Assembly: GCA_030650095.1 (NCBI GenBank)
Contig: JAUSEE010000001.1
Coordinates: 8,199 to 72,198 of the forward strand
Direction of reading: 5' to 3'
Length of the DNA stretch: 64,000 nucleotides
Source of the DNA: Candidatus Buchananbacteria bacterium
GTDB lineage: Bacteria; Patescibacteriota; Patescibacteriia; 2-01-FULL-39-33
A program made the position numbers and the translations under genes. The notes beneath the pieces were generated by a model. That model worked only from the letters and a program-made list of their open reading frames with translations. It was not told the origin of the DNA and did no database searches. Shown here piece by piece: positions 39,651-63,625 of this stretch (positions are counted from its first letter, which is position 1; each line of letters starts with the position of its first letter).

Positions 39651-39653
39651 GTA

Positions 39654-43196: not shown

Positions 43197-43255
43197 TTAG
43201 CTTCTTTCATAAGCTGATTTGAGAATGAGGATAAACCACATTATCAAATCATCTG

Positions 43256-43345: not shown

Positions 43346-43491
43346 AGTTATTCGAAGATAACTAAAGCATTTTATCACAAAAAAGTCGTCTTGTAAATAC
43401 CCTAAATTAAAGATAAAAATGTGCAAACTGATGCTAATCTTGTCTTTATTATAACATAATACCGCTAAGCTATCAAAAACAGTTTATTTTA

Positions 43492-47905: not shown

Positions 47906-48274
47906 TCAAATTGGCTTATTTTTGCTCTTTTCTATTATAGCAGCAAATATTTTTAAAAGCTGACAGGTTTCATCCAAAAGCAGCTCCATTTTCACCTTAA
48001 GCCGCGGATTGGCTTCAATAATCAGTTTTAACCAATAGACTGTCTCTTTAGCTTCTTTACGACATATCCTCATTCTAAATTGAAAATCTTTTTTTGTTTC
48101 AGTTTCATTAGCTTCTCTATAATTAGCCCCTAGCGATAACCCCGATCTAACCACCTGCCTTACCAATACATTATTAACAATGTTTAGTGGAATATTCTTC
48201 GCCATTTTTATTATTCTCTTGCCATATTCCAGTGTTCTATCTTCAAGGTCATAACTATTTGTAATTTCTACCAT
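47906..48274 (-). CDS. Four-helix-bundle protein (23S rRNA intervening-sequence protein family)
   Basis: YGKRIIKMAKNIP...QVVRSGLSLGANYREANE core typical of this family; 122 aa. Confidence 0.65.
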   Translation of the reverse strand: MVEITNSYDLEDRTLEYGKRIIKMAKNIPLNIVNNVLVRQVVRSGLSLGANYREANETETKKDFQFRMRICRKEAKETVYWLKLIIEANPRLKVKMELLLDETCQLLKIFAAIIEKSKNKPI

Positions 48275-48328: not shown

Positions 48329-49819
48329 TTAATATCTTAAATCTTTATTTATCTCCCCAATAGAGTTGAATTCTTCTATAGATAAGGTGGGCTTATGGCT
48401 TTCTATTCTCTCATTAATTATATCATCAATGCTGCGTCCCTGTCGCATGCTTTCCTGGCCCAACAACCTGTAAAATCTGTTAATTTCATTTTTATGCCAG
48501 GCTTCTACCGCTTCTAATTTCTTTATATAGGAATCTTTCTCCAGCAGTTCTATCTTGTCTTTTATTTTAGCGGTAGCCTCATGAGGCGTCTGTCCCAGCC
48601 GGCGGAAATTTATCAAAGTCATAGTGCCCAGCTCTTCCACTGGCCCGACCAGTGTAGTGTTTATCCTAACGCCATCCACCGATGGCTTGCCAAATCTGAT
48701 ATTTCTGGGTGAGAGTGTTGATTTGGCCATAGGCTGAGGCTGTGGAGCAATAGGAACTTTAGTTTCCAGCGGTTTTATGGCCGCTGGCAAAACTAGTGGA
48801 GTTGGAGCCACCGGCACAGGAGGAACAATTTTAATTTTTTCTGGAACATTAATGGGTTGAACTTTTCTGATTTGATTAAAATCAGTTATCTTCGGCCGAA
48901 TCATTAAATCATCGCCTTGCGGTGATTTTATCACCGGCAAACCGTCTTCTTCTTCAATTTTAGGCGCCAAAGACAAATCCGGTTTGACTAGCCTTTTTTC
49001 TGCCACTTTCGGCTCACTTACCGCTGGCGCCGGTTCTTTTATTATCGAGCCATTCTTTTTGGCTTCCAAAGTGGTTTTAGCCGGAACAAAGGGCTTTTTA
49101 ACCGGAAAGTTAATTGGTTTTTTTTCACTGGATGTTTCCCCTTCTTTAGGCAAAAGTCCTTGGCTTATTTTTTCACGAATTAAAGCAATCACTTTTCCCG
49201 CTTCGTCCTCGGTCATGGCCAAACCGCCTACCTTACGGCTTTTCTTTAAAACTTCCAATGTTTCCATTTCGTCTCTGATATCTTTTAGCCGCGCCATAAT
49301 TATATTTTTAAAACGGCTTAAAATAACTTCATCTCCATTAATGCTGTAACCGGACTGCGAAATAATAAGTTCGGCCAAAGAAGAATAATCATGTGCTTTT
49401 GGCTTACTAGCAGAAGAAGAAATTATTTTTTTTATTTCTTCGTCGTCTTCGGGTGAAAAAGAAATGTGGGTATTAGGTTGAACTGGTTGTTTTATTTGTG
49501 GCTCTTTACTGTCTATTTCAGCCGATCCGCCCAAGCCGTTAAGCAATTCTTCCACCCCGCTGATTTGATCTTTGAGCGGCATAAACCTGCTTAAAACGGC
49601 AGCCAGAGCTATTTTTTTTACAGTCTCTTCGTCTTTTCTAACCGCTTTTTTAAGTTCGGGCAAAAAATCAGCCAGTTTAACCGAACCTAAAATAATTCTG
49701 GAAATCAACTTGATTATTTCTTTGATTTCACTATCGGTCAAAGCAAAAGATGCCAGCCAAGCATTGGCCTTTTTTAATTCTACCACATCATCAAAAATAT
49801 TTTTAATTTCTTCCGACAT
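48329..49819 (-). CDS. Hypothetical protein with a Pro/Lys-rich linker (T4SS accessory?)
   Basis: ORF track; low-complexity middle; no family recognised. Confidence 0.35.
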   Translation of the reverse strand: MSEEIKNIFDDVVELKKANAWLASFALTDSEIKEIIKLISRIILGSVKLADFLPELKKAVRKDEETVKKIALAAVLSRFMPLKDQISGVEELLNGLGGSAEIDSKEPQIKQPVQPNTHISFSPEDDEEIKKIISSSASKPKAHDYSSLAELIISQSGYSINGDEVILSRFKNIIMARLKDIRDEMETLEVLKKSRKVGGLAMTEDEAGKVIALIREKISQGLLPKEGETSSEKKPINFPVKKPFVPAKTTLEAKKNGSIIKEPAPAVSEPKVAEKRLVKPDLSLAPKIEEEDGLPVIKSPQGDDLMIRPKITDFNQIRKVQPINVPEKIKIVPPVPVAPTPLVLPAAIKPLETKVPIAPQPQPMAKSTLSPRNIRFGKPSVDGVRINTTLVGPVEELGTMTLINFRRLGQTPHEATAKIKDKIELLEKDSYIKKLEAVEAWHKNEINRFYRLLGQESMRQGRSIDDIINERIESHKPTLSIEEFNSIGEINKDLRY

Positions 49820-49831: not shown

Positions 49832-52510
49832 TTAGATGTCTTTTAACTGATCAGCTCTCTTTTGTTCTGTAGAAGCAGGAGCTGTACCAACTGCCTGTCT
49901 TCTGACTTCGGTAGCGATCTTGCTAGCCAAAGCTCCACCCTCAGTGGAAGTACTTAGTGTTTTGATAACATTAATATTCATTTTTTCACCAGCTATTTCC
50001 ATTTGGGAACCACTTCTATTTAAACCTTTCATAAATTCAGCGTCTTTAGCTGATACAGTAGCCATAACATCTTGAAGTATGGCTCGTTTTTCGGCATTAA
50101 CTTTTACGCCACCCACGGTACTATCAGCAATATTAACTTCATTGAATGAGGCGCCAGAAGCTAGAGCATTTTTAAACGTTCTTTGGTATTGTAATTTATC
50201 ACCAGTGGCAATCTCGGCTTCTGTTATTTTATTAATAACAGCTTCAAAACTATCAGATAATTTCTTTTTGATAATTGGTGATTGATCTTTAAACTGGTTG
50301 GGACTAACCAAGTCACCAAAACTCTTAACAAATTCCTCGCTGACCTCCTTCATCTTTTTGCCAATATCACTGCTATTGTTGGACACAAAAGTTCTAATAG
50401 AGTCAACATCATCGGTATTAGTCTGGTCAAAGGTCTGCATGACATGATTAAAGCTGGTAGCTTTATTAAATCTGTCACGCATTTTTTCACCGCTATCAGT
50501 AAGTTTACCACTGCCATCACGTTCAAAAGTGTTATGATCAACCTTGCCATAAATCGCTGTCTTTTGTTTATCGGTTAAATCACTATACATTTCACTTTCA
50601 TCTTTTTCTTTGGTATGTTTAGCCATGAATGTAGCCAATTCATCACCTTTGGGTGTAGAACCTTTAGGCGCCAGGGCATCGTTCAAAGATAAAAGCTGAG
50701 TTTCACTCAAACTGCCCATCATTTCATGAGCTTTAACCTTGCCCGTCCTAACATCAGAAGTAAAGGCATCTGTGCGGAAAGTTTTGCCGTCATCACCCAT
50801 ATAAACCGTATCATAAGCCAAGCCCGGATTATATTTTTTGGTGTTGTCCATAAAGGTAGCAGCCAACTCTGGCGGCAACATCTTTTTGGCATCGTTGATC
50901 AATTTAATATTTTCGGCTCTGTTGGCTGTGTCATCATCTCTAAACATGCCTTGCTTCATCATAGCTTGAGTAGCGGCAATCTTAGCATATTTATCACCTT
51001 TAGTAGCCAGTGATCGCAAGTCTTTTTCACTCATGTCATCAACCTTAAGGGCGCTGGCTCTAGTAGTAATCCTTTCTTGTTCGGCTTTAGCTTTGGTGGT
51101 AGCCAGTTTAATTTGTCGTTTGTCCACTGCTTGCCCACCTAGCCTGCCAAGTATGGGTATTTTTCTAGCTAGCGGTATAGCCATAGCACCAGCTAATACT
51201 CCGGCGCCAGCCAAGCCGGCGGTGCCAGCTACAGTACCAATAGCGGCCTTTTTGCCCCATTTTTGCAAACCAGCCACGCCTTTGCCGGCCCACTGGGCTC
51301 CGGCCACACCGGTTTTTTGGCCAAAAACCAAACTGCCCACCATTAAGCCGATAATTATTAAGAAATCAAAAACGTTTACCGGATCTTCTAATTCCGATAA
51401 TCCTATTTTCTTATTCAAATCATCTGTTTTACTTAGAAGTATGCTGGCGCCATCATTAACTTGGTATGCTCCCTCTTTGCCACTGCTAATTGTACTAGGA
51501 TCTTGAACATTAATTGAACCGCTGAAAAACGACAGGTAAAGAAAAAACAACATTATCGGTCCCACCACCAAATATTTAGTTATTTCACTCCACCACATGC
51601 CGGCGTATTGCTGGCCTTTGGGGAAAGTGGTGAGAAGATAGGCCAGGGGTGACAGAATAATCAAAAACCAGAGCATAACGATCCTATAAACCAAAATAAT
51701 GGTAATAATGGCAATTACCACTACAGCCACCACCGATAATATTAGGGCAAATAAAAGCGTTTTAATGGCTGCCCCAGGGCTTAAACTGCCAGGAACTGGC
51801 TCGGTCCAATCAAACTGTCCGGCATCAATGCGGTAAAGCTTGTCCAAGCCTAGAGCTAAAAGTATGATATTGCCACCACTGCTAACACCCTGTATGGTCC
51901 CGGCAAACCAGAGTGTTAAGACTTGGGAACCGTCAATCATAATGCCGGTAAAAGTTTTGGAGAAATTTATTAAAACCGCCATCACCAGCAGTTTGGGCAG
52001 AAGCTGGCGATTATAATTGGGCACCCTTAAAATCGTGCCCACAGCTATGGCTAAAAGAATAACGATAAAGAAATTATTAGCCACATCACGCACAATCGCC
52101 CAACCATTGATAACTATTTGATTATCTAAGAAATGATTATAACTGGCTACTTTAACCATGACTATTATTAAAAGATTAACCAGCCAGCTGAAAAAGGTGG
52201 CGATATAAAAAACTATCCAAGCAAAGACATTGGCAATGGAATTTTCGGTGCTGTTAGCATCATCGCCTGCCTTAGGCACGCCACTCGCCATACAATCATT
52301 ATAAATACGTTTAAGTTCACTTCCATCCGGATCAGTTGTGTTACTTGTTTTACTGGCAGCATAATCACCGCATTCTTTGTCTCGTGAATCAATAAAGCTA
52401 CTTCCAGCAGCTATTGCCTGAACAAAAGAAACGGAACTACTAAAAACTACCACCAACAAAAGAGTAGTTAGTAGTACGGCGCTGATTAATTTTTTTCTTT
52501 TGGTGGTCAT
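49832..52510 (-). CDS. VirB6/TrbL-like polytopic membrane protein with N- and C-terminal soluble extensions
   Basis: Signal peptide, 6-7 transmembrane helices in the middle, Gly/Ala-rich segment, long C-terminal domain; 892 aa. Confidence 0.5.
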   Translation of the reverse strand: MTTKRKKLISAVLLTTLLLVVVFSSSVSFVQAIAAGSSFIDSRDKECGDYAASKTSNTTDPDGSELKRIYNDCMASGVPKAGDDANSTENSIANVFAWIVFYIATFFSWLVNLLIIVMVKVASYNHFLDNQIVINGWAIVRDVANNFFIVILLAIAVGTILRVPNYNRQLLPKLLVMAVLINFSKTFTGIMIDGSQVLTLWFAGTIQGVSSGGNIILLALGLDKLYRIDAGQFDWTEPVPGSLSPGAAIKTLLFALILSVVAVVVIAIITIILVYRIVMLWFLIILSPLAYLLTTFPKGQQYAGMWWSEITKYLVVGPIMLFFLYLSFFSGSINVQDPSTISSGKEGAYQVNDGASILLSKTDDLNKKIGLSELEDPVNVFDFLIIIGLMVGSLVFGQKTGVAGAQWAGKGVAGLQKWGKKAAIGTVAGTAGLAGAGVLAGAMAIPLARKIPILGRLGGQAVDKRQIKLATTKAKAEQERITTRASALKVDDMSEKDLRSLATKGDKYAKIAATQAMMKQGMFRDDDTANRAENIKLINDAKKMLPPELAATFMDNTKKYNPGLAYDTVYMGDDGKTFRTDAFTSDVRTGKVKAHEMMGSLSETQLLSLNDALAPKGSTPKGDELATFMAKHTKEKDESEMYSDLTDKQKTAIYGKVDHNTFERDGSGKLTDSGEKMRDRFNKATSFNHVMQTFDQTNTDDVDSIRTFVSNNSSDIGKKMKEVSEEFVKSFGDLVSPNQFKDQSPIIKKKLSDSFEAVINKITEAEIATGDKLQYQRTFKNALASGASFNEVNIADSTVGGVKVNAEKRAILQDVMATVSAKDAEFMKGLNRSGSQMEIAGEKMNINVIKTLSTSTEGGALASKIATEVRRQAVGTAPASTEQKRADQLKDI

Positions 52511-52736: not shown

Positions 52737-55700
52737 TTATTGATTTTTATTTATGGTAAGTGAAACTGTTACCGGGTCATTAGATTTATTCCAATTATCA
52801 TAAACAGTTATTTCCACCTCCACAGTACAACTATCATTATTGCAATCAGTGTCCGGAATACTGCTAACTTTATTAAAATCATAAAGATGGTACAAAAGGA
52901 AAGGATTTTCCGGATTGGTTCTGTTTCTAAGCGACACACCGCTAACTTTTGATTTTTCTCCATCTTTCCAATCAATGACATAGGCGGTAAGAGGCAGCTG
53001 ATCAGGATCAATCAAGGTGGTAAAAGCCAGTTTGGCCAAACCAACACCATTATAAATAGTGGGATCGATGCTATTGTTTATTATTTTGCTGGTTACTTTT
53101 GGCTTAACATAACAAGGCTGAACACTAGATTCTTCCCTTTTATCGCCAGTAGCGCCACCATTGCATTCCCCACTGGGTATGGATAAATAATCTTCCCGGC
53201 TAGGATCCTCCTTATATACTCCGCCTCTATCAGCCACTGGGCCATCTAGACAGTCGCCATTGGCCGCGCGATTATCACCTTCACATTTATTCCAGCGCCA
53301 CTTCCAAGCTCCATAGCTTTGAGCGAATAACTGCTGTAGACCATCTTGGCTATGAATTTCGCCCATTCTGGCTTGATAAGGAGGGGCAAAACCGCCCAGT
53401 CGCGGTGGCTCATAAAGCAAGGGAGTATTAAAAATGCCGGCGCGGCTGCTCCAATTAACCGGATTTGGACTGCCGGAAGGAGAAACTATGGCGCCAAAAG
53501 GCTGATAATCAGATGATTGATAAGTGGAGGCATCAAGCGCAGAAACATCCCCGCCGGATCCACCGCCAAACCAACCACCCAATTGGCCTAGAAGCCCTTG
53601 GAGAAACTCAATAAATACTCCGCTACCGGGCACTTCGGCTGCATCTGATCCATTATATGTAAAATCAATATTATCCAAGAATTTATTAAAATCAAACGGA
53701 TCATAATAATAATACTTGCCCGTAGTTTCACCCTCGGCTTTATTTCTGGCTTCGGCATCATTATTGATAAAGCCCGATCCTGGAGTTACCCGATTAGCAT
53801 AAGCCTTATTGGTGCCCGAAGAAGTTACCACTCTCACTAAGCTGTCACAATAATTAATATCAAAATCACCTTTGATAGTCATACGTATATAGACCGCGTC
53901 GGCTTCGGCTGTGGATCTAACAAACCAAGACGCGCCCAAAATATCACCATCCAAATCCGGAATCGGATCAGTGGCGCCACCAGTAATGCCACCAGCTTGC
54001 GTATCATCTATGATTTTCAGTCCCATGAGCGGACCAAAATAAACTCCTAAATCTCCCTGAGACTGCAACAACTGTGTTAATTGTTCAATTATACCGCCAA
54101 TATTACCTGTAGCTATTTCATAAGGGATAGGTATTGGCAGACAAATCAAGAAACCGCCTTCTCCACCTAAACCGACACAAAATGGTATGGCCGCCCAACC
54201 TTTCCACTCGCGCTTATCAGTATCATAGGTTAGGGTTTTATTAACCGGAATCATAACAACAAAGCCCACATCATGCTGAAAACCAAAACCGGTAACTTTA
54301 AGCTTGATTCTATCAACATAAGGGAACCTAAAGAGCGAGCGGTAATCATCTTTGATATTCATCGGACTAAAGTTCATTTGCTGGCCGGTGTTGATATCCG
54401 AAAAACCAGATACCACTTCTTGGGCATCAGAGCTTAAAGACAGGGCTACGCCTGATTTAGAAAAATCCACATTAAATCTCTTTTTTTCCACGCAATAATC
54501 CAAAGGCAATCTGTCGTTATAACCGCCAACCTCGTTTAATATCTCGCCCTGAAGCTGATCTACCGGCCACCATTGCAAGCATTGTTTGGAATTGTTGGGA
54601 TCCACTAGTAAGCAATAGCCGTAACTGCCGTAGAATAAATTATTGCCTTCCAAATACCGGCAAGACAGCGCATCTTCGGCCGGATAAATACGGCAACTTC
54701 GGGTTAAATAATTATCAGTTAAATCATTTGGCGTGGACAGATCATTGCTAACCTTTAGAATCGGCTTAAGAGAAATATCGTCAAATAAAGCCGTCCCGCC
54801 CAAAGCGCATTCAGTGAGCTGGTTGTTATCATTACAACCGCCTATATTAACATGATTTTTCAATTTAATTCTTATTTTATCGGTGTTAAGGGAGGGATTA
54901 AACTCAAACATTCTTTTGGTCCAAGACAAGCCACTCACTAAAGACAATTCGGTGGGATATTTCCAGTCGCCCCAACTGCCTCCTTCGGTGTGTTCCCGGT
55001 ACTGAATCTGCGATTGGATTACTTCATTTCCATCGGGATAATTCAAGCCAGAAGAATTAATCCAGCCGGAAAGGATATAGGGATCACCGCCGAAAACATC
55101 AATTTCCTCCGACAGGGCTTCGTAGAAAGAGTTTAAAATCAAATGCCTGGATCCGTCCGGACTGCTCTTGGTATCTTTGGCTACGCTAAACTTATAATCA
55201 TGCCAACCCACAGCTTCCGACTTATACGATTCACTGTCATCACCGGTAGATTCCGAGGGGCTCCAGCCCAAAGGTTCGGTGGAATTGGTTACCACCGATT
55301 CAAAATTGCCGTTGGTAATAGAACCGGCATTGCCGAATTGAGTCATTAGATAATAAGGGAAATAACCTGCCACATTAATGCCGCCGGGGAAATTCTTGCC
55401 CACGGAAGCATAGCCGGTTTTATAAAAATCTTTCTCGCTGTAATTTTCATCGGTTATTTCGCCTGATTTCAAAATAAAATTATTACAGACGCCTTTTTCA
55501 TCAACCGAAGCGCACAGCCCCAAATCCAAGCAACGGTCGTTATTGCCATAAATCGGATCAACACTATTGGGATCATCTTTTTCATAGGTAGTACAATAAA
55601 GCCAATTGTAACAAGTTCTATCCGGCTGGACTTTTAAAATAACATTAGCATCGCCTTTGGCCGGCGGGGTAGCCGATATAGGCGTCGTCGGATCTTGGTT

Positions 55701-58700
55701 TGGCTTGTCCATTTGCTCCTTGTAACTGGCGCCGGCATCAAAAGTGAGGTAGTTAACATTTCTGTCTGAAACACTTTTAGCTGAATAATTAATCGAGCCT
55801 CTGTCGTTAAACAAAACACAACCGGAATTATAATCTATTAAGCCGTTGCAGCCGGTGTAATCAACTTTGGCGGAGAGGGCATAATAAACGCCTGATTGCA
55901 CCAATCTTAGATTATTAACTGCTTGGGGCGCAGGGATAACTAATTTTACGAGGCAAGTCGTATGGGAATTATAAATTATATAAAACCGGCCGCTGGCAGA
56001 TTTGGGCGAACCTATATTGCCACCGGTGATATTCATACTGTCATCAGGTGAAACCATTAGCCCGGTGCAGGGAGTCGAAGATGCTATTTCGATTTTAGCT
56101 TTGGTAGTAGCACTCTCATCCACCGAGAAAGAATAAAGCGTGTGAGACAATAGATTTATATTTTGTGACAAGCCGGTGCCATTTCCATCCCAATGATCTG
56201 GAATATCATTGCCATCAGCATCTTGACTTAAATCAACATTTAATATTTCATTTTTATAAACTTCGGTTATCGGATCAATGTATTCGGTGCAACTGCTTTG
56301 TTCGGCCGGGCAAAGCCCCACCCAATTCTGATAGCTGGCGGTGGTGCCACCGGGCGTCGGCCAAGCATCTTCACTAGGCATTCTGTAGCTGTTAAACCAG
56401 CCCACGGGCTGGACTTTATTTTCCGGAGAACCGGTGCCAATGGTTTGAAGATAAGTGACATCGCAGGGTTCGGTAGTGCCTTTCTTATACCACTGCGCCT
56501 GGGCTTGGCCTAAATCCGTCCTGTATTCACAAACCCTATCTCTGGGGTCTTTGAAATAAGAAACATTCCTGGAGCCGACAAATTCCTGGCACCAGAGGGC
56601 GCTGGCCTGGCATAAATCAGTGGCGTATCTATCGGGCTGATTTTTAAGATAAGAATCAGCATAGCCAACAACTTCATCTTGATTGTTAATTTTGGGCAAG
56701 CCGTAAGCTAAGCAACCCTTATCTTCCGATTTGCAATTATATTTAGAATCATTAACTATGTAAACAAAATTGTCACTGGGCACAGTTACCTGCGATGGGT
56801 CGCCTGAATTATAAGTTGCGCCGTAATAAGAATCGGAATTGTAGGTATCTATTAATTGTTCGCAACCCACGGCATCGCGACGGCACAAATTTTCAAAAGA
56901 TTTTAAAAACCAATTCTTATTGGAACGATCACGATACTCTTGACAGCCGATCATTTTTCCCGGATTGCTCCTCTCTGGATTTAGAGCATCGCCGGCACCG
57001 TAAGGCTGACTAATAATATTGTCGCAAACAAAAGGAGTAAACCAAGAATTTTCAATGGCATAGACGCTTTGAGGCAATTCTTTAAGCAAAATATTATCAA
57101 TGTAAATCACCTGTCCGCTGGGGATATTTATTTCTATATTCTGCTCGAAATAACCAGTGCCACTGCCCCAGCTAACTTGCACCGGGCCAAGATCATAACG
57201 ATTCCATTCATTGGTTATGGGAATAGGCAAATCTCCGGCTGTTACCACATCCGGATGGCCAACTATAAATGAGCCCTCTGGCGGCGCCTGTGAAAACCTG
57301 ATGGAATCAAGATCAAAGCCAGCATTGCCTTTAGCCCAAAAACTAATGGCATAAGATTTGTCTTTTTTGATTAAGACTGTTTTGGAGAACTGGCGAGAAC
57401 TATTGAGGCTGTTGGTAAGAGAATTTCCGCCCGGATGGGTAGCTTCGCTGGCTATCGTACCTCCCTGCCAATCCATGGCGCCGGATTCAAAATCAGACAA
57501 AAAGATATTCCTAAAGCTGCTGCCCTTATTGCCGGTGTATTCCCGACAGCCTTTTAAATTAGCCGAGCAAGTCTGGCCTTGGCCGGGAATGGCCATATAA
57601 ATACACTCGCCAAACTGATTATAATAGCCTTGATTGTTTCGACAATCCTGGGCGGCTTCAGCCTCATCATTTTGAGTTTGGGTTCGGCGGTAAGGATGGC
57701 AATCGCTGGAAACATAAATAACCCGTGACAACAACCGGTAATGAATATTGCCACTGACATCATAAAATTCACGGCAGTCCGGATTGGAATTCAAATCAGA
57801 AGACAAACAAGCGGCATCGTTAGTGTTTGGATCATCACTGGGCACAGGATCACCGCAAACATTGTCGCCGTTTAAATTATTAGGGTAGCTTAAATTGGTA
57901 CAGGGAGGAGTGCCCACGCCAGAAGTATCATTGGAGCCTTTCAAAGTGAAAACTTTAAGCTGATAACCGGTGGTATCACTGCCTTCCCAAGTATAATAAG
58001 TGACTTCATCGCCGTAGGCATCAGGCTTCTGGCAAGTCCTAAACTGAGTATAGTATTCCAAACCTTCTCCGCCTCTGGCTACTTCGTCTAAATTGGTGAA
58101 TTCGTCACAGCCGGCAGCGGCGGCAGAACAATATTGAATAGGATCTTTGGCAATGAATTGCTTGTATTTGGCCGAAACAAAACTGGTCGGCTCCTGCTTA
58201 TAAACCTGATAGCCGGCGCACTCCGACGGACAGACATCAGCCGAAGTGATTGTTCCGGGCACAGCCGGATCGCCATTTACCGGAGTATAGAGTTCGCAGT
58301 TCATCTCGCTTTTTATGCAAACACTGGAATAATTGGCACAAGCCGGATTGCGGCCGAATATAACCTGCTGCAGTTCGGTTAAATTGGTAGGCCAGTTACC
58401 AGCAGAGGTTAAATAGCAATCGTAATAATCGGGCGCTTTTTTAAGATAAGTTAATTGCGAGGCCGGCCTCTGGCTGGGGTTGTAAGAGGTGTAAGATGTA
58501 GGAATATTAATGCCGGCTGAAACCGCTTCTAGTTTGACAGCGTCAAAGTAAGCTTCTTTTAGACCGCTGCTACCTTGGTTGATAAACAAGCGCGGACTAA
58601 CTACTTCGTCCGGGCTGTTCCAAACAAAGCTAGTGCTAACCGTTGTCCATTTATACAAATCCGCTTCGGCAAATGTATTCGGTTCGGTGGTTATGCTGGC

Positions 58701-61700
58701 GTCATCGTTAAGAGATACAAAATAACTGCCTATTTTTTGAATATAAACCCTGGCTGATAAAATATATTTATTGCCATTTATTAAAGTAAGCGGACTAAGA
58801 GAAGCGGTGGCCGAAAAATAAGCGCAATGTTGAGAGTTTGAATCAAAATCAGATCTTAAACCGATAGATTTATCGCCATCTGCGCCGGAATTAACGACAA
58901 ATATTTCACAGGAGCCGTGATTGCCACTAGCGCCGGGCTCCCCTATCCAATGATTTAAATCACTGTAATAATCTTCAAAACTGCCATCAACTATCAAGTT
59001 GCTGCCCAAATCTGATTTCACTCTGATAAACTGGCTGCAGCCGACAGCTGATGAACTGCAAGCCTGGGCATCGCGATCAAAGTATATTTCTGAATCGGTA
59101 TTATCTTGAGAGCCAATATTAAGCCAAACATCACCGGTAGTGCAAGAACCAAGCGCTTCTTTTAGGCTAAAGTCATCAAAAAATACCGTACCCGTTGTGC
59201 CGGCATTAGTGATAACCCTTATTTCTATGCTATCACCGGCCTGGATATTCTGGGTGCTGAAATTAACGGAATATTCTTGCCAATTATCGCTCAAAAGGCC
59301 AATGGTTTGACTGCCAACTTCCAAACTGGAAGAAAATACTTTGACATCAAAACTGCCCAAGCTGATATTGCCGCGCAAATAAAATGATAATTTATAATTC
59401 TTGTTCGCCTCTACGCCGGAATTAACTGACAAGGTGGTTGAAAGGGGCGTGGTATTATTAAAACTCACACTCTCCAGTGAATACGAGCCGGTACGCTTGC
59501 TAATGTCGGATCTAAATTGCCTATTGGTATCATTTTGATAGCTTTCCTGCCAAAAACGGGCATCCCAACTGGCATTACCGATTAATTCAAAACTGTTATT
59601 GAAAGGAGTTAAAATATCAATGGAGTTCAAACACTTATCCAACGAGCATCTCACACCGTCAAAAGGCACGGTGCAAGACTCCCCGCTAAAATCACAACCG
59701 CCGTCAGTGGCACAAACTTTATCCATCACTATGCCGGCGTTAGCGGAATAAGCCGTTTGCTTCCATTGTTCTACTTCTAAACCGGAAACTGTACAACCAA
59801 CCAATGTATTGCAAGTTTTAAGTGTTTTTTCACTCTCGCTATTTAGCCAAGTGTTATCTTTGATATTATACAGTGTGCTGTACCACCGGCAACCGGCCGA
59901 CTGGGAACTGCAATCGCTATAATCAAGAGTATTGGCCAGATAAGACCCGGTGGTGCCATTTTTCGATTGGAAAGTTTGGCAAGTGTTGAAGCGCGGCTGG
60001 CAATTGGTGGAGTTTAAATTCCAAATTTTTCTTTCTTCGGTGCAATAGCCATAAGCCGTGCAATTGCCATCGGAATCTTCGGTTAAGCATTGCTGTTCAT
60101 CAGCGCAATACTGATTGCGAACCACCGATCCGTCTTGAGAACTGGCTCTGGTATTTTGATCGCCATAACCCTCACGGCGGCAGAAAAGTTCCGGCGCTTT
60201 TAAAACCCACTGGGGATCAATCAGATTTTGGAAGGTGGAAGAAGCATGATTAAATTCTTTGAGCAAATCGCCCAAGGTGTAATTCTGCTGTTCCTGTTTG
60301 GACTGGCTGATATACCTAGCGGCGATTTCCCAACCAACCGGCACGATTCTGTATTTTCTTAAAATAACAATATTTCTTAAAGAAAAAGATTCCTGCGGAT
60401 TGACATTATCAATCGGCGGCACAAATTGCCTGTTTAAAATCGAGGCCGGCAGATCTTTGACTAATTTCTTTTCCCTGATCGCTTGGGACAAAATGGGATC
60501 TATCACGCAATCAGTCGGGCCGGGATTTATTTTATTAGCTTCGGTGCAATTGGTTAATTTGTTTAAAATATCATATGGACCGCCTATGGCCAGATTGCTT
60601 TCGATTAAGTTTAAAAATCTTTCTTTGGCGCCAATGGAACCTTCCACATAAGGCGATGATTCCGGATTAAGAAGTGAAGCAAAGCGGGAAAGATTGGGCA
60701 GATTAAAGCCTTTATTTCCGTCCGAGCTGCCACTCTTAAAATAACCGGTTTTTAGGTTCTCTAAAAGTTGGCCGACTAAGGTGTCCAAAAATGTCTGTAT
60801 AAAATCCCAAACAGTTCCAGTGAAAGTGGAATCTTCTTTACCAGCTCTTTCTTGAGCTACTTCGTGTTGGTTTTTTACCATAGTGCCGGGAGTCAAAACC
60901 CAGCCGGTTAGGGTTTTTAGATCTTTAAAACCTTGATTGATGGAGGCTTCCAAGGCGGAAACACCGGTTTTTTCTTTAACCTTATCCATCAAAGACGAGC
61001 TGGTTTTTAAATAGATGCCAATATCGTTTTCGCTGGCATTTAAATAATTGCTGTATTCAACATTAAAATTAGCATCAGTAATGGCTGATCGCCAGTTTTT
61101 AACCATGCCGGTAAAATTACAGGTTGGTTTCTTGATCCGATCGCCTCTTAAGCTGGTTTTGATCATCAGTTCCACATTAAAATTGGGCCGGCATAAATTA
61201 ACGCCGAATTCCTTGTCTATTTCATCAATAAAAGTGCCGGCGGCATTATCGGCCGTGTTTTTCAAATAAGCGCCGATGCCTTCGGTGATAAACAACGGCT
61301 TTTGGCCTTTGCCGCCGGAAGCGATCCAAGAAGCGGTATCATAAGCCAGTTGTTTGGAAAAAGCGCTTAACATGGATTTCCAAGCGCCAGCCAAAACATC
61401 TCTCCAAGTCTGTTTTTCTACCTCTCTTAAGCTATCAGCGGCGATGTGTATTTGGTTGTTTTCGGTGACAACAACATTCTGGCATTGGCTGGCATTAATA
61501 GCCGACTGCACAGCTGTTTTCATAGCCTGGCTACAATCAAAAGTCACGCCATTTGCTGTTCCTGTTATAGGTACAGGAATACATTCTATGGCTAGAGCTT
61601 CGGCTAGCGCTTTTCCATTACAGGCTATAGCAGATTCAATCGCCGCGCCCGAGCCGGCAGTAGCTTCAGCCGCAGTTAGAGCTAACGTCCCCATTGTACT

Positions 61701-61790
61701 AGGAGATAGAGCCCTAACAAATCCAATTGATGCCAAAAACAAAAATAGCGGAACAAGCAAAAATAAAAATTTTATCCTAAGACTCTTCAT
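52737..61790 (-). CDS. Giant secreted Cys-rich protein (3017 aa) with multiple CBM4/9-like carbohydrate-binding modules
   Basis: Signal peptide. At least five modules start with (S/N)GNFE/SFEDY...W and end in beta-sandwich-like segments. More than 100 Cys. Confidence 0.6.
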   Translation of the reverse strand: MKSLRIKFLFLLVPLFLFLASIGFVRALSPSTMGTLALTAAEATAGSGAAIESAIACNGKALAEALAIECIPVPITGTANGVTFDCSQAMKTAVQSAINASQCQNVVVTENNQIHIAADSLREVEKQTWRDVLAGAWKSMLSAFSKQLAYDTASWIASGGKGQKPLFITEGIGAYLKNTADNAAGTFIDEIDKEFGVNLCRPNFNVELMIKTSLRGDRIKKPTCNFTGMVKNWRSAITDANFNVEYSNYLNASENDIGIYLKTSSSLMDKVKEKTGVSALEASINQGFKDLKTLTGWVLTPGTMVKNQHEVAQERAGKEDSTFTGTVWDFIQTFLDTLVGQLLENLKTGYFKSGSSDGNKGFNLPNLSRFASLLNPESSPYVEGSIGAKERFLNLIESNLAIGGPYDILNKLTNCTEANKINPGPTDCVIDPILSQAIREKKLVKDLPASILNRQFVPPIDNVNPQESFSLRNIVILRKYRIVPVGWEIAARYISQSKQEQQNYTLGDLLKEFNHASSTFQNLIDPQWVLKAPELFCRREGYGDQNTRASSQDGSVVRNQYCADEQQCLTEDSDGNCTAYGYCTEERKIWNLNSTNCQPRFNTCQTFQSKNGTTGSYLANTLDYSDCSSQSAGCRWYSTLYNIKDNTWLNSESEKTLKTCNTLVGCTVSGLEVEQWKQTAYSANAGIVMDKVCATDGGCDFSGESCTVPFDGVRCSLDKCLNSIDILTPFNNSFELIGNASWDARFWQESYQNDTNRQFRSDISKRTGSYSLESVSFNNTTPLSTTLSVNSGVEANKNYKLSFYLRGNISLGSFDVKVFSSSLEVGSQTIGLLSDNWQEYSVNFSTQNIQAGDSIEIRVITNAGTTGTVFFDDFSLKEALGSCTTGDVWLNIGSQDNTDSEIYFDRDAQACSSSAVGCSQFIRVKSDLGSNLIVDGSFEDYYSDLNHWIGEPGASGNHGSCEIFVVNSGADGDKSIGLRSDFDSNSQHCAYFSATASLSPLTLINGNKYILSARVYIQKIGSYFVSLNDDASITTEPNTFAEADLYKWTTVSTSFVWNSPDEVVSPRLFINQGSSGLKEAYFDAVKLEAVSAGINIPTSYTSYNPSQRPASQLTYLKKAPDYYDCYLTSAGNWPTNLTELQQVIFGRNPACANYSSVCIKSEMNCELYTPVNGDPAVPGTITSADVCPSECAGYQVYKQEPTSFVSAKYKQFIAKDPIQYCSAAAAGCDEFTNLDEVARGGEGLEYYTQFRTCQKPDAYGDEVTYYTWEGSDTTGYQLKVFTLKGSNDTSGVGTPPCTNLSYPNNLNGDNVCGDPVPSDDPNTNDAACLSSDLNSNPDCREFYDVSGNIHYRLLSRVIYVSSDCHPYRRTQTQNDEAEAAQDCRNNQGYYNQFGECIYMAIPGQGQTCSANLKGCREYTGNKGSSFRNIFLSDFESGAMDWQGGTIASEATHPGGNSLTNSLNSSRQFSKTVLIKKDKSYAISFWAKGNAGFDLDSIRFSQAPPEGSFIVGHPDVVTAGDLPIPITNEWNRYDLGPVQVSWGSGTGYFEQNIEINIPSGQVIYIDNILLKELPQSVYAIENSWFTPFVCDNIISQPYGAGDALNPERSNPGKMIGCQEYRDRSNKNWFLKSFENLCRRDAVGCEQLIDTYNSDSYYGATYNSGDPSQVTVPSDNFVYIVNDSKYNCKSEDKGCLAYGLPKINNQDEVVGYADSYLKNQPDRYATDLCQASALWCQEFVGSRNVSYFKDPRDRVCEYRTDLGQAQAQWYKKGTTEPCDVTYLQTIGTGSPENKVQPVGWFNSYRMPSEDAWPTPGGTTASYQNWVGLCPAEQSSCTEYIDPITEVYKNEILNVDLSQDADGNDIPDHWDGNGTGLSQNINLLSHTLYSFSVDESATTKAKIEIASSTPCTGLMVSPDDSMNITGGNIGSPKSASGRFYIIYNSHTTCLVKLVIPAPQAVNNLRLVQSGVYYALSAKVDYTGCNGLIDYNSGCVLFNDRGSINYSAKSVSDRNVNYLTFDAGASYKEQMDKPNQDPTTPISATPPAKGDANVILKVQPDRTCYNWLYCTTYEKDDPNSVDPIYGNNDRCLDLGLCASVDEKGVCNNFILKSGEITDENYSEKDFYKTGYASVGKNFPGGINVAGYFPYYLMTQFGNAGSITNGNFESVVTNSTEPLGWSPSESTGDDSESYKSEAVGWHDYKFSVAKDTKSSPDGSRHLILNSFYEALSEEIDVFGGDPYILSGWINSSGLNYPDGNEVIQSQIQYREHTEGGSWGDWKYPTELSLVSGLSWTKRMFEFNPSLNTDKIRIKLKNHVNIGGCNDNNQLTECALGGTALFDDISLKPILKVSNDLSTPNDLTDNYLTRSCRIYPAEDALSCRYLEGNNLFYGSYGYCLLVDPNNSKQCLQWWPVDQLQGEILNEVGGYNDRLPLDYCVEKKRFNVDFSKSGVALSLSSDAQEVVSGFSDINTGQQMNFSPMNIKDDYRSLFRFPYVDRIKLKVTGFGFQHDVGFVVMIPVNKTLTYDTDKREWKGWAAIPFCVGLGGEGGFLICLPIPIPYEIATGNIGGIIEQLTQLLQSQGDLGVYFGPLMGLKIIDDTQAGGITGGATDPIPDLDGDILGASWFVRSTAEADAVYIRMTIKGDFDINYCDSLVRVVTSSGTNKAYANRVTPGSGFINNDAEARNKAEGETTGKYYYYDPFDFNKFLDNIDFTYNGSDAAEVPGSGVFIEFLQGLLGQLGGWFGGGSGGDVSALDASTYQSSDYQPFGAIVSPSGSPNPVNWSSRAGIFNTPLLYEPPRLGGFAPPYQARMGEIHSQDGLQQLFAQSYGAWKWRWNKCEGDNRAANGDCLDGPVADRGGVYKEDPSREDYLSIPSGECNGGATGDKREESSVQPCYVKPKVTSKIINNSIDPTIYNGVGLAKLAFTTLIDPDQLPLTAYVIDWKDGEKSKVSGVSLRNRTNPENPFLLYHLYDFNKVSSIPDTDCNNDSCTVEVEITVYDNWNKSNDPVTVSLTINKNQ

Positions 61791-61796
61791 AAAAAA

Positions 61797-62612
61797 TTAA
61801 TTGCTCTCGGCGTTAAGCTTGGTTAAAAACATGGTTTTTAGTTCTTCATCGCTAACCTGTGATAAAATCTCGGCCGATGCGCCCTGCTCTATCATCAGTT
61901 GCCTGATTTGAGCGCCGGTTAGATTTTTTAAATCATCAATTGAATTCAAGCCGCTCGAATTAACATTAGTGGAATCAGCCGGATTCTGGCCGGCCAAAGC
62001 TTGCTGATAAGTGGTTAAAAGTTGATCATCAGTTATCTTGTCCAGCTGATCTTGGGGAAAACCGTTTTGTAAAAGCAGCGCCCGAAGAGCTTGCGGATCA
62101 GACCCGCTTAGTAACAACGTTTGCCCACTTCCTGAATTTAAGTTCTGGTTCAAATAAACAGCCTCGGTTCTAAAACAGTTATCACCAGTAGAGCAATTAG
62201 GATCGTGGCCAGCAGTAATCTCCTCTTTATCGGAAACGCCGTCACTGTCGCTGTCAGCCAAATAGGGGCTGGTGCCATAAACACTTAGCTCATCATAATC
62301 GGATAAGCCGTCGCCGTCGGTGTCTTTTTGCTGCTGGGCTAAGATAGCTAAAGCATCACTAGAAGAACTGGTATCTTGGCCAGCCAGAAGCATTAAATCG
62401 GTTACCGGCTTTCTTAGCGAGCTGGAAAATTGAGTTATGCCTAAAATAACAGCAAAAAAAGACACAACCAAAACCAAAGCCACAACTGCTTTTTCTTTGG
62501 CGGATCTTTTGTCAACAGATATACTGCCCTCTTCTTGCAAAAAAACATCTTGATTTTCATCCTGCAGATACTCTGCCGACTGATTGTTGTTAAACTGATT
62601 TTCACCTTCCAT
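61797..62612 (-). CDS. Membrane-anchored protein with thrombospondin type-3-like Ca-binding repeats
   Basis: Transmembrane helix; DTDGDGLSDYDE and DSDSDGVSDKEE repeats. Sits 7 nt upstream of the giant gene. Confidence 0.55.
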   Translation of the reverse strand: MEGENQFNNNQSAEYLQDENQDVFLQEEGSISVDKRSAKEKAVVALVLVVSFFAVILGITQFSSSLRKPVTDLMLLAGQDTSSSSDALAILAQQQKDTDGDGLSDYDELSVYGTSPYLADSDSDGVSDKEEITAGHDPNCSTGDNCFRTEAVYLNQNLNSGSGQTLLLSGSDPQALRALLLQNGFPQDQLDKITDDQLLTTYQQALAGQNPADSTNVNSSGLNSIDDLKNLTGAQIRQLMIEQGASAEILSQVSDEELKTMFLTKLNAESN

Positions 62613-62788
62613 TAAGTGTGGATAAAACAGTTAAGTACAAATTAATTATAACATAAAAAGACGTTTGCAACAAAATAATAAAGCTGGCGTTTTGCCAGCA
62701 GTATTAGAAAAGTGATTTTAAACTAAATAAAGTTAAGTTAAATTGTTTATTTGAATATTATCAGTATTAAAAAAGTCAGAAAAATATT

Positions 62789-63625
62789 TTATTTTTGTGT
62801 TTTTGTGATTTCGAGTTTTTGTAATAATTTCACCCAATCTTCCATAGCCAGATCCTGGGCCCTGATCTTTTCTGTTAGACCCATATCTTTTAAGAAGCCT
62901 TTTATTTGATCATTTCCTAGGTGCAAGCCATTGGCCAAATTGTTATGAAGCTGTTTCCTTTTGGCCGAAAAGCCTATCTTGGCCACTTTAAAGAATGCTT
63001 TAGGATCAGAAAAAGGCAGAGAACTTTTTAATTTTAAGCTAATAACAGCCGAATCAACCTGGGGCGATGGCCAAAAAGAATTACGGCTCACCTCAAAGAG
63101 AATTTTAGGCTCGGCATAAAACTGAACCGACAAAGACAGCAAACTCATCTCCCCTTTCTTAGCTACAATCCTTTGAGCCACTTCCTTTTGGATCATGATA
63201 ATCATCTCGATTGGCGGATTTTCTGTTTCCAAAAAATTCCTAATGAAATTAGAAGTGATATTATAAGGTAGATTAGCCACTATTTTATAAGGTCTTTTTA
63301 AGTCCAGCGTCGAGATGTTAAGCTTTAAAATATCGCCTTCAATTATTTTTAAATTAGGCGCTGAAGCGTATTTTTTCCGTAAAAAATAAATTAATTTTTT
63401 ATCTAATTCTACTGCTGTCACCTGGCCCGATTGTTTAATCAAATCATCGGTTAAAACTCCCAAGCCGGGGCCTATTTCCAAAACCACATCTTTTGGGCCT
63501 AATTTGGCTGATTGGATTATCTTTTCCATCACATTCTGATCAAATAAAAAATTCTGCCCCTTGCTTTTAGTCGGGGTGATGTTATATTCTTGGCAAATAG
63601 CTTTAATTTCAGAGATTGTGAGCAT
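62789..63625 (-). CDS. rsmA: 16S rRNA (adenine1518/1519-N6)-dimethyltransferase
   Basis: KSKGQNFLFD and VLEIGPGLGVLT SAM-binding motifs. Confidence 0.9.
   Translation of the reverse strand: MLTISEIKAICQEYNITPTKSKGQNFLFDQNVMEKIIQSAKLGPKDVVLEIGPGLGVLTDDLIKQSGQVTAVELDKKLIYFLRKKYASAPNLKIIEGDILKLNISTLDLKRPYKIVANLPYNITSNFIRNFLETENPPIEMIIMIQKEVAQRIVAKKGEMSLLSLSVQFYAEPKILFEVSRNSFWPSPQVDSAVISLKLKSSLPFSDPKAFFKVAKIGFSAKRKQLHNNLANGLHLGNDQIKGFLKDMGLTEKIRAQDLAMEDWVKLLQKLEITKTQK

What the first reader, a model, noticed from the sequence alone, without database searches (positions are those of the whole stretch)
52737..62612. Operon of a TSP3 calcium-binding membrane protein and a 3017-aa Cys-rich multi-CBM secreted protein immediately upstream of the T4SS-like cluster
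The 271-aa protein has a transmembrane helix and two DxDxDGxxDxxE thrombospondin-type Ca2+ sites. Seven nucleotides downstream, the 9-kb gene encodes a signal-peptide protein with at least five modules of the CBM4/9 or galactose-binding-like type (starts such as NGNFESV...GWS, GSFEDYYSDLNHW, SDFESGAMDWQGG, NNSFELIGNASWDARFW) and more than 100 cysteines. A giant carbohydrate-binding surface protein coupled to a T4SS is what one would expect from a host-attachment or host-surface-recognition apparatus in an episymbiont. The pairing is not a textbook arrangement.
Basis: partly seen in the sequence, partly recalled or inferred. Interest (0 to 1): 0.7.

Follow-up and report, generated by a model that had tools for sequence, protein, structure and literature searches.

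The report
Giant lectin-like protein partnered with T4SS
A 3017-residue secreted, disulfide-rich protein with lectin-like modules and its small calcium-binding membrane partner sit directly upstream of the type IV secretion genes in at least 60 related ultra-small (Patescibacteria) genomes examined, which makes them the best candidate for the missing host-contact part of that machine.

Summary
The two ORFs are real: a 271-aa protein with one TM helix and two TSP3 repeats, and a 3017-aa protein with a Sec signal peptide. Some details differ from the finding: 84 Cys rather than more than 100, four supported CBM4/9-like modules rather than five or more, and a 6-nt gap. The window is from a Candidatus Buchananbacteria MAG (100% protein match). 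The giant belongs to a large, collinear, unannotated Patescibacteria family. A profile of its N-terminal domain hits 1154 50%-identity clusters, and 578 stretches in species-representative genomes encode a relative. Gene order ksgA, TSP3, giant, VirB6-like, p496, PrgI, TrsD, VirB4 is conserved: TSP3 upstream in 59/59 loci, VirB6-like downstream in 50/52, TrsD in 33/41 and VirB4 in 32/41 within 10 kb. Gaps are operon-like (medians 11 and 46 nt). About 50 Cys are invariant, scaffold regions are conserved, and modules M1/M2 and one C-terminal stretch are variable. The N-terminal domain matches no solved structure. Published surveys of the Patescibacteria T4SS report no adhesin and do not mention this family. 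Best reading: a Sec-exported extracellular host-contact module of this lineage's T4SS. The linkage is shown; the function is inferred. The reverse linkage is not universal.

The parts
62789..63625 (-). ksgA/RsmA rRNA adenine dimethylase; conserved upstream boundary gene of the cluster
   Evidence: Pfam RrnaAD E 5.5e-62. Found upstream in 52/58 related loci.
62683..62699 (-). Terminator-like hairpin plus T-run between ksgA and the TSP3 gene; probable end of the ksgA transcript, so TSP3 would start a new unit
   Evidence: Consensus scan only; weak evidence. No such site lies between the giant gene and the VirB6-like gene.
61797..62612 (-). 271-aa single-pass membrane protein. Variable N-terminal tail, TM helix 37-66, two TSP3 Ca2+-binding repeats (about 97-135), a conserved C-x5-C pair, and two C-terminal helical repeats (LR..L...G.....L...SD..L)
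   Evidence: 63 orthologues were recovered, median 277 aa, 48/63 with two full DxDxDGxxDxxE motifs. Immediately upstream of the giant gene in 59/59 loci.
52737..61790 (-). 3017-aa Sec-exported, Cys-rich giant protein; member of a collinear family found only in Patescibacteria
61710..61790 (-). Signal peptide, residues 1-27, with predicted cleavage after VRA
   Evidence: Read from the sequence. Hydrophobicity. Homologues carry equivalent AxA signal peptides.
60189..61508 (-). Conserved N-terminal domain, residues 95-534. Long helices (95-403) followed by a confidently modelled alpha/beta subdomain (404-534; motifs GGKGQKPLF, NPGPTDCVID, ILRKYRIVPVGWE)
   Evidence: Present in all 120 homologue clusters. 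Mean pairwise identity 0.30 for 95-403 and 0.43 for 404-534. AF2 mean pLDDT 67, with 85-97 for residues 404-534. No PDB match by sequence or fold.
59628..60188 (-). Cys-rich region, residues 535-721 (YCADEQQC...YGYCTEER...), with many invariant Cys
59136..59627 (-). Module M1, residues 722-885: CBM4/9-like jelly-roll. The most variable module and often absent
   Evidence: Pfam HpiC1-like 6e-5 and CBM_4_9 2e-3. hhalign to M2/M3/M4 97.6-98.0%. Identity 0.07, occupancy 0.49.
58506..59033 (-). Module M2, residues 920-1095: CBM4/9-like
   Evidence: Pfam CBM_4_9 1.6e-3. hhalign 97-98%. Identity 0.17.
57528..58505 (-). Conserved Cys-rich core, residues 1096-1421, with C-x6-C 'GC.E[YF]' hairpin motifs
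   Evidence: Identity 0.39. No Pfam hit.
57051..57527 (-). Module M3, residues 1422-1580: CBM4/9-like; gives the best Pfam match
56259..57050 (-). Conserved Cys-rich core, residues 1581-1844
   Evidence: Identity 0.35. Motifs.
54741..55343 (-). Module M4, residues 2150-2350: related to M1/M2 by profile comparison only
   Evidence: hhalign 97.2-97.8% to M1/M2 and 88.8% to M3. No Pfam hit.
53541..54485 (-). Hypervariable stretch, residues 2436-2750
   Evidence: Identity 0.11, occupancy 0.58. Covered by only about 35 of 120 homologues.
52740..53150 (-). Conserved C-terminal domain, residues 2881-3017 (IDWGDG...DNW motif). No LPXTG motif and no C-terminal TM helix
   Evidence: Terminal in 95/120 homologues. 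No LPXTG. No Pfam hit.
49832..52510 (-). 892-aa 'extended VirB6'-like polytopic membrane protein: 8 hydrophobic segments in residues 1-450, then a roughly 440-aa hydrophilic domain
   Evidence: Pfam TrbL 1.4e-4, 22.1 bits, below the 25.9 cutoff. TM scan. Downstream of the giant gene in 50/52 loci.
48329..49819 (-). 496-aa conserved cluster protein of unknown function, no TM helix
   Evidence: No Pfam or NCBIfam hit. Present in 36/41 loci.
47380..47841 (-). PrgI (VirB3-like) membrane protein
   Evidence: Pfam PrgI 9.4e-8, 32.9 bits against a cutoff of 27. Present in 35/41 loci.
46684..47358 (-). TrsD / VirB4-N-terminal-like protein
   Evidence: NCBIfam VirB4_plasma 2.5e-12 and TrsD 4.2e-7. Present in 33/41 loci.
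44760..46658 (-). VirB4 ATPase (monoderm, CD1110-like)
   Evidence: NCBIfam conju_CD1110 348.4 bits against a cutoff of 325; Pfam P-loop_TraG 2.4e-30. Present in 32/41 loci.
44177..44740 (-). 187-aa protein with an N-terminal TM helix and an ectodomain; conserved downstream of virB4. A VirB8-like role is a guess and was not tested
   Evidence: No family hit.

Best explanation
The TSP3 gene and the giant gene form the extracellular front end of the chromosomal T4SS-like machine of this Patescibacteria lineage (Buchananbacteria, Falkowbacteria, Uhrbacteria and relatives, i.e. GTDB class ABY1).

Shown: the two genes are co-oriented and nearly always contiguous with the VirB6-like, p496, PrgI, TrsD and VirB4 genes, with operon-like spacing, across relatives down to 28% identity.

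Inferred:
1. The giant is exported by Sec and its signal peptide is cleaved.
2. It folds outside the cell into an elongated scaffold held rigid by disulfides. About 50 Cys are invariant, and C-x6-C hairpins sit next to the modules.
3. It has no TM helix or sortase anchor of its own. It would be held at the membrane by its conserved N-terminal domain, bound to the Ca2+-loaded ectodomain of the single-pass TSP3 protein and/or the extracellular loops of the extended VirB6.
4. Its four CBM4/9-like jelly-roll modules and its hypervariable stretches would contact surface glycans or proteins of the host cell, positioning the VirB4-powered translocon (and the VirB2-like pilins encoded 17 kb away) against the host.

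In role this matches the surface adhesins that Gram-positive conjugative T4SSs use instead of pili. It is not homologous to them.
For: - Organism: 100% match to a Candidatus Buchananbacteria MAG protein (lineage).
- Family: 120 homologue clusters, all 2200-3900 aa and collinear. A profile of the N-terminal domain finds 1154 clusters at E<=1e-30, and the domain is always N-terminal. 578 stretches in GTDB species genomes encode a relative.
- Linkage: TSP3 59/59, VirB6-like 50/52, p496 36/41, PrgI 35/41, TrsD 33/41, VirB4 32/41. The same order appears in independently fetched contigs at 28-40% identity. In L002 the virB4 part is elsewhere, yet the giant stays with the VirB6-like gene and its neighbour.
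- Spacing: medians of 11 nt (TSP3 to giant) and 46 nt (giant to next gene).
- Cluster genes are retained more often (26-31 of 31 loci) than the flanks (0-23 of 31).
- Export and lack of an anchor.
- Lectin-like modules.
- Mosaic conservation, with a conserved scaffold and variable M1, M2 and 2436-2750.
- A DsbA-like oxidoreductase and VirB2-like pilins are in the same window.
- Literature: the Patescibacteria T4SS lacks a relaxase, is essential for epibiotic growth in a Saccharibacterium, and no adhesin had been found for it (PMC12102498, PMC12857230, PMC10633639).
Against: - No experiment or structure ties the giant to the T4SS. Synteny is the only link, and this lineage keeps a good deal of gene order anyway: three genes upstream of ksgA are kept in 20-21 of 31 loci.
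- Close VirB4 relatives (69-85% identity) often lack this family upstream of VirB6: 10 of 19 judged loci. The T4SS can therefore do without it, or uses other partners.
- The CBM_4_9 evidence is weak for each module taken alone, and sugar binding is untested.
- Adhesins usually evolve fast, whereas most of this protein is strongly constrained.
- The N-terminal domain has no recognisable fold. The model is only moderately confident (pLDDT 67, pTM 0.38), so the proposed docking role has no support from structure.
- No TSP3-giant fusions were found.
Confidence: 0.55

Rival explanations
1. The giant is a structural part of the secretion machine, not a host-specific adhesin. [quoted passage not shown] The jelly-roll modules would bind the cell's own wall or S-layer to fix the apparatus in place.
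For: Domain order is fixed and about 50 Cys plus many Gly/Trp/Pro are invariant across members at 28-70% identity. The N-terminal domain and the cores are the most conserved parts. The protein is always paired with an 'extended VirB6' and a small Ca2+-binding membrane protein.
Against: M1, M2 and residues 2436-2750 are hypervariable or missing in many members, which is what surfaces exposed to hosts tend to look like. VirB2-like pilins are already encoded in this genome. Related T4SS clusters exist without this family.
Confidence: 0.2
2. The giant and TSP3 pair is a general cell-surface or nutrient-scavenging lectin system with no functional tie to the T4SS. The adjacency would be inherited gene order in a slowly rearranging, origin-proximal region.
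For: Flanking genes outside the cluster are also fairly conserved, in 20-23 of 31 loci. ksgA, a housekeeping gene, is part of the same conserved block. Large Cys-rich extracellular proteins are common in CPR genomes in other contexts (PMC4736985; PMC11809585).
Against: Linkage to the VirB6-like gene (50/52) exceeds that of any flank. Intergenic gaps are operon-like. No terminator-like site lies between the giant and virB6 in the window. When the cluster is split (L002), the giant stays with the VirB6-like gene and its neighbour. Other lineages place different Cys-rich giants at the same position upstream of VirB6 (L126, L145).
Confidence: 0.17
3. It is a polysaccharide- or cell-wall-degrading enzyme. 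Its unrecognised N-terminal domain would be catalytic, for example a VirB1-like hydrolase acting on the host wall, and the CBMs would target it to the substrate.
For: CBM4/9 modules are classically attached to glycoside hydrolases (general knowledge). VirB1 homologues are rarely found near virB4 in most Patescibacteria classes (PMC12102498).
Confidence: 0.05

Closest known systems
Patescibacteria (CPR) chromosomal T4SS, MPF-FATA-like clade (Quinonero-Coronel et al. 2025, PMC12102498; Wang et al. 2023, PMC10633639)
   Same: The downstream genes here are that system: VirB4 (CD1110-like), TrsD, PrgI/VirB3 and VirB6. VirB2-like pilins are present elsewhere in the window. ksgA lies nearby, and comF, recG and radA are neighbours as described for class ABY1. 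No relaxase or coupling protein was seen in the cluster.
   Different: The published descriptions list no adhesin and do not mention a giant CBM-bearing protein or a TSP3 protein as cluster members. This finding adds two conserved genes at the 5' end of the ABY1 cluster.
Surface adhesins of Gram-positive conjugative T4SSs (PrgB/aggregation substance of pCF10, with PrgA and PrgC)
   Same: A Sec-exported surface protein encoded within a monoderm T4SS operon, thought to make the cell-cell contact that pili provide in diderms.
   Different: No sequence or domain homology. No LPXTG sortase anchor. About three times larger. Disulfide-rich. Lectin-like jelly-rolls in place of the PrgB polymer-adhesin domain. 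PrgB homologues were explicitly not found in Patescibacteria (PMC12102498).
CBM4/CBM9 carbohydrate-binding modules (Pfam PF02018)
   Same: Modules M1-M3 match the family profile, and M4 is related to them by profile-profile comparison. The same Pfam family is precomputed for most homologue clusters.
   Different: The per-module scores are below the family threshold. No catalytic glycoside hydrolase is attached. Ligand binding is unknown.
Large Cys-rich extracellular proteins of CPR bacteria (Peribacteria, PMC4736985) and FhaB-type giants of Patescibacterium danicum (PMC11809585)
   Same: Large, exported proteins in ultra-small symbiotic bacteria, proposed to act in attachment.
   Different: Those proteins are lineage-restricted or fast-evolving (no full-length homologues were found for the P. 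danicum giants) and are not linked to a T4SS. This family is collinear in all 120 homologue clusters retrieved, with relatives found at 578 stretches in species-representative genomes, and sits at a fixed place in the T4SS cluster. It has no FhaB or haemagglutinin domains.
Bacterial TSP3-repeat proteins (for example Myxococcus CglD and MtsD)
   Same: Thrombospondin type-3 Ca2+-binding loops in an envelope protein involved in cell-cell or surface adhesion.
   Different: Only the repeat is shared (NCBIfam scores 18-21 bits against cutoffs of 400-800). This is a 271-aa single-pass protein with just two repeats.

Membership tests
Pfam CBM_4_9 (PF02018) | Sequence match at or above the curated gathering score | tested here: met
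   The whole protein scores 32.4 bits against a cutoff of 25.9, E 1.4e-7. No single stretch is significant alone. M1, M2 and M3 scanned separately give 18.7, 19.3 and 21.4 bits.
Pfam CBM_4_9 (PF02018) | Beta-jelly-roll fold with a carbohydrate-binding cleft; actual sugar binding | not testable with these tools
M1-M4 are mutually related by hhalign at 89-98%.
Pfam TSP3_bac (PF18884) | DxDxDGxxDxxE Ca2+-binding repeat at or above the gathering score | tested here: met
   34.4 bits against a cutoff of 25, two stretches. Two full motifs in 48 of 63 orthologues.
Patescibacteria / monoderm MPF-FATA-like T4SS | VirB4 ATPase of the monoderm type | tested here: met
   NCBIfam conju_CD1110 scores 348.4 bits against a cutoff of 325.
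Patescibacteria / monoderm MPF-FATA-like T4SS | VirB3 (PrgI), TrsD and VirB6 encoded next to virB4 | tested here: inconclusive
   PrgI is met (32.9 bits against 27). TrsD gives only sub-threshold hits (30 bits against 200). VirB6/TrbL scores 22.1 bits against 25.9 but has 8 hydrophobic segments.
Patescibacteria / monoderm MPF-FATA-like T4SS | The giant and TSP3 proteins are physical components of, or functionally required by, the system | not testable with these tools
   Only conserved gene order and spacing are available.
PrgB-type Gram-positive T4SS adhesin | LPXTG sortase anchor and PrgB adhesin domains | tested here: not met
   No LPXTG motif. No Pfam or NCBIfam adhesin family.
FhaB / filamentous haemagglutinin-type giant exoproteins | Haemagglutinin/FhaB repeat domains | tested here: not met
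   No such Pfam or NCBIfam hit in the giant.
Sec-dependent secreted protein | N-terminal signal peptide with n-, h- and c-regions and an AxA-type cleavage site | tested here: met
   Read from the sequence: the K/R-rich n-region, a 19-residue hydrophobic core and VRA/LS. Equivalent peptides occur in most of the 20 homologues inspected. No dedicated predictor was run.

The most novel reading that the evidence does not exclude
The 3000-aa protein is not merely an adhesin attached to a T4SS. Together with the two-repeat TSP3 membrane protein and the extended VirB6, it would form a new kind of extracellular T4SS superstructure for monoderm episymbionts: a Ca2+-dependent, disulfide-rigidified fibre or conduit with a novel N-terminal docking fold. 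This structure would replace the outer-membrane core complex and bridge the gap to the host envelope. Different Patescibacteria lineages would place different Cys-rich giants at the same position upstream of VirB6 (as in L126 and L145) to match their hosts.
Probability: 0.15. Interest if true: 0.85.

Novelty: new variant of a known kind. Interest (0 to 1): 0.62.

Why it matters
The Patescibacteria T4SS is widespread and chromosomal, lacks a relaxase, and is essential for epibiotic growth in the one lineage where genetics exists. What it touches and what it moves are unknown, and the published surveys found no adhesin. This work identifies a conserved, secreted, lectin-like giant and a Ca2+-binding membrane partner as fixed neighbours of virB6/virB4 in a large uncultured class. 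That gives two concrete candidates for the host-contact end of the machine.

The proteins can be expressed in pieces, used as baits to find hosts of uncultured ABY1 bacteria, looked for in cryo-ET maps, and tracked in metatranscriptomes. The variable modules (M1, M2, 2436-2750) could serve as markers of host specificity. The N-terminal domain appears to be a fold with no solved relative.

Tried and rejected
- BLASTP of the giant against itself found no internal repeats. Module relatedness only showed up with profile-profile comparison.
- phmmer of the whole protein and a 45-sequence profile of the N-terminal domain against PDB sequences gave nothing below E=0.2.
- The first AF2 model of residues 95-700, built on 18 sequences, was unusable (pLDDT 47). 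The second, residues 95-564 with 45 sequences, reached pLDDT 67.
- The afdb50 library was unavailable.
- The search for homologous proteins with the N-terminal alignment returned only 14 proteins, most of them on short contigs or marked partial.
- A search for TSP3-giant fusions or TSP3 motifs inside the giants found scattered single motifs in 8 of 216 proteins and none in this one. No LPXTG motif was found either.
- Reverse test from VirB4: tblastn found the giant's C-terminus upstream of VirB6 in only 6 of 19 loci. A family HMM added 3 weaker cases. The other 10 have only short ORFs or no long ORF upstream of VirB6 in the 1-4 kb available, so the linkage is specific to a lineage, not to every close VirB4.
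- NCBI record titles reading 'uncultured Gammaproteobacteria' on many TPA MAG contigs were treated as likely placeholder labels, because their genes are the same Patescibacteria cluster. This was not verified.
Full report
**Observation**

The window carries two co-oriented ORFs on the minus strand: 61797..62612 (271 aa) and 52737..61790 (3017 aa), separated by 6 nt.

The small protein has one strongly hydrophobic helix at residues 37-66. It has two Pfam TSP3_bac repeats, scoring 34.4 bits against a cutoff of 25.

The giant begins with a textbook Sec signal peptide. It has no other convincing TM segment, no LPXTG motif and no C-terminal anchor. It has 84 cysteines, not more than 100.

Pfam reports CBM_4_9 for the whole protein at 32.4 bits against a cutoff of 25.9. 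Scanned separately, three segments each give a weak CBM_4_9 hit: M1 722-885, M2 920-1095 and M3 1422-1580. Profile-profile comparison of family sub-alignments links M1, M2, M3 and a fourth module, M4 2150-2350, at 89-98% probability. BLAST finds no internal repeats.

**Surroundings**

Upstream lies ksgA (62789..63625), followed by a terminator-like hairpin. Downstream on the same strand, in order:
- an 892-aa polytopic protein with a sub-threshold TrbL/VirB6 match, eight hydrophobic segments and a large hydrophilic tail;
- a 496-aa protein of unknown function;
- an inserted 23S-rRNA-IVP gene;
- PrgI (VirB3-like);
- a TrsD/VirB4-N-like protein;
- a VirB4 ATPase that passes the NCBIfam CD1110 cutoff;
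- a 187-aa protein with an N-terminal TM helix;
- comF.

Further along are recG, radA, two VirB2-like 'T4SS_pilin' genes and a DsbA-like oxidoreductase. This matches the neighbourhood published for the T4SS of Patescibacteria class ABY1, with ksgA, comF, recG and radA nearby (PMC12102498). The giant is 100% identical to a protein of a Candidatus Buchananbacteria MAG (lineage).

**The family**

The giant retrieves 120 homologue clusters. All are 2200-3900 aa, and every source name is Patescibacteria (Buchananbacteria, Falkowbacteria, Parcubacteria). None has a functional name beyond 'carbohydrate binding domain-containing'.

The architecture is collinear. The N-terminal domain (about 100-650) and the central core (about 1150-1800) are covered by essentially all homologues. 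The C-terminal domain is terminal in 95 of 120.

An exhaustive HMM search with the N-terminal domain finds 1154 50%-identity clusters at E<=1e-30. The top 150 are all giants or fragments, and the domain always sits at the N-terminus.

In a 32-member alignment most invariant columns are cysteines, about 50 of them. A C-x6-C motif of the form 'C..(A/S)..GC.E[YF]' recurs nine times, several of them just before a jelly-roll module.

Conservation is mosaic. Mean pairwise identity by region:

| Region (residues) | Identity |
|---|---|
| N-terminal alpha/beta subdomain (404-534) | 0.43 |
| 2351-2435 | 0.44 |
| Cores (1096-1421, 1581-1844) | 0.35-0.39 |
| M1 | 0.07 (present in about half of members) |
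| 2436-2750 | 0.11 |
| M2 | 0.17 |

**Linkage**

Three contigs fetched through distant homologues (28-40% identity) show ksgA, a small gene, the giant and a ~900-aa membrane-protein gene in the same order. The small protein carries a weak TSP3 hit in L001 and L003; in L002 it has no Pfam hit but matches the window's TSP3 protein by tblastn. L001 and L003 continue with an unknown gene, PrgI, a TraC-like gene and VirB4. In L002 the giant stays with the ~900-aa membrane protein, which matches the window's VirB6-like protein by tblastn, and its neighbour, while virB4 lies elsewhere.

Across 73 loci from species-representative genomes:

| Gene and position | Loci with it / loci with room to judge |
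|---|---|
| TSP3 immediately upstream | 59/59 |
| ksgA upstream | 52/58 |
| VirB6-like downstream | 50/52 |
| p496 within 10 kb downstream | 36/41 |
| PrgI | 35/41 |
| TrsD | 33/41 |
| VirB4 | 32/41 |

Several of the misses occur because the cluster runs off the 10-kb flank.

Median intergenic distances are 11 nt from TSP3 to the giant (n=57) and 46 nt from the giant to the next gene (n=55).

As a control, genes of one reference locus were counted across the 31 loci with full flanks. Cluster genes are kept in 26-31 of them. Genes beyond the cluster are kept in 0-23, and three genes upstream of ksgA are kept in 20-21. The cluster is the best-conserved block, but background synteny in this lineage is substantial, so gene order alone is not proof of a functional link.

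**Reverse test**

Starting from VirB4 (80 metagenome loci at 69-85% identity), 19 loci had a VirB6-like gene plus at least 0.9 kb further upstream. Six showed the giant's C-terminus by tblastn. A family HMM added three weaker cases. Ten did not. Among the three HMM-only cases, L126 and L144 carry an even more Cys-rich (about 5%) giant ORF upstream of VirB6 (directly upstream in L126) that matches only weakly or partially. Among the ten, L145 carries such an ORF directly upstream of VirB6 with no detectable relation to the family, several have only 250-550-aa ORFs, and one (L122) shows no long ORF there.

This family is therefore a lineage-specific addition to a more widespread T4SS. The slot upstream of VirB6 may be filled by other large Cys-rich proteins in other lineages.

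**N-terminal domain**

A first AF2 model built on 18 sequences was unusable (pLDDT 47). With 45 sequences the model reached pLDDT 67 and pTM 0.38: long helices, then a confident alpha/beta subdomain at residues 404-534.

**Mechanism**

Shown:
- export signal;
- no anchor of its own;
- lectin-type modules, at the sequence-profile level;
- invariant cysteines;
- mosaic conservation;
- near-obligatory adjacency to a single-pass Ca2+-binding protein and to VirB6 and the rest of the T4SS.

Inferred: the giant is a disulfide-stabilised extracellular fibre. It would be held at the membrane through its conserved N-terminal domain by the TSP3 protein and/or VirB6. It would use its variable jelly-roll modules to bind the host surface, positioning the VirB4-driven translocon.

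This is the role played by surface adhesins in Gram-positive conjugative systems. The family is not a PrgB homologue and lacks a sortase anchor. I put 0.55 on this reading. The rivals are a purely structural machine part (0.20), a surface lectin unrelated to the T4SS (0.17) and an enzyme (0.05).

**Novelty**

The held literature describes the Patescibacteria T4SS and states that no adhesins such as PrgB were detected. The main text and the two held supplements of that survey contain no mention of CBM, TSP3 or carbohydrate binding. The T4SS nomenclature review and the Southlakia genetics paper likewise do not describe such a component.

Large Cys-rich or FhaB-type proteins have been noted in other CPR genomes. 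Those are different families and are not T4SS-linked. My literature searches cover open-access papers only, so earlier mention elsewhere cannot be excluded.

I rate this a new variant of a known kind: a T4SS with an accessory surface protein, here of an undescribed family. Interest is moderately high.

Noticed in passing
window 34305..36900 (+): A DsbA-like thioredoxin gene (34305..35111) overlaps by 4 nt the first of two VirB2-like 'T4SS_pilin' genes. The first (35108..36013) also carries a Peptidase_M15_3 domain; the second is at 36028..36900. An extracytoplasmic disulfide oxidoreductase beside T4SS pilins is notable in a genome whose T4SS-linked giant has about 50 invariant cysteines.
   Followed up: partly
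window 47906..48274 (-); also L018, L019, L037, L041, L052, L061, L073: A 23S-rRNA-intervening-sequence protein gene (PF05635, E 1.7e-13) is inserted between p496 and prgI. Copies sit at different intergenic positions of the same cluster in other genomes (between the giant and virB6, or between ksgA and TSP3), which suggests sporadic, mobile insertion.
   Followed up: partly
L126:1-4059, L145:2-3424, L144:3-2375: In some T4SS clusters with a close VirB4, the position upstream of VirB6 is taken by a different giant ORF that is even more Cys-rich (about 5% Cys) and runs off the locus end. These ORFs are only weakly or partially related to this family by HMM (L126, L144) or not detectably related (L145).
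   Followed up: partly
window 20764..26418 (-): Two adjacent large ORFs of 1258 aa and 601 aa have no Pfam match. They lie next to what looks like a type IV pilus gene cluster (T2SSE-type ATPase at 15593..17338).
   Followed up: no
window 1428..2939 (+): A large serine recombinase (Resolvase, Recombinase and Zn_ribbon_recom domains) sits at the edge of the window. It may mark an integrated element.
   Followed up: no
window 36918..44196: radA (36918..38252), a methylpurine-DNA glycosylase gene (38360..38902), recG (39654..41729) and comF (43492..44196) flank the T4SS cluster, as reported for class ABY1. This would fit a DNA-uptake or recombination link for this T4SS. I did not pursue it.
   Followed up: no
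L004, L006, L011, L013 and many other loci (record titles): Many TPA MAG contigs that carry this Patescibacteria-specific cluster are titled 'uncultured Gammaproteobacteria bacterium' in their public records. These are probably placeholder or erroneous taxonomic labels.
   Followed up: no
window 61797..62612 (-), residues about 170-265: The C-terminal third of the TSP3 protein holds two copies of a conserved helical motif (LR..L...G.....L...SD..L...Y) with no Pfam match. It is conserved across 63 orthologues.
   Followed up: partly
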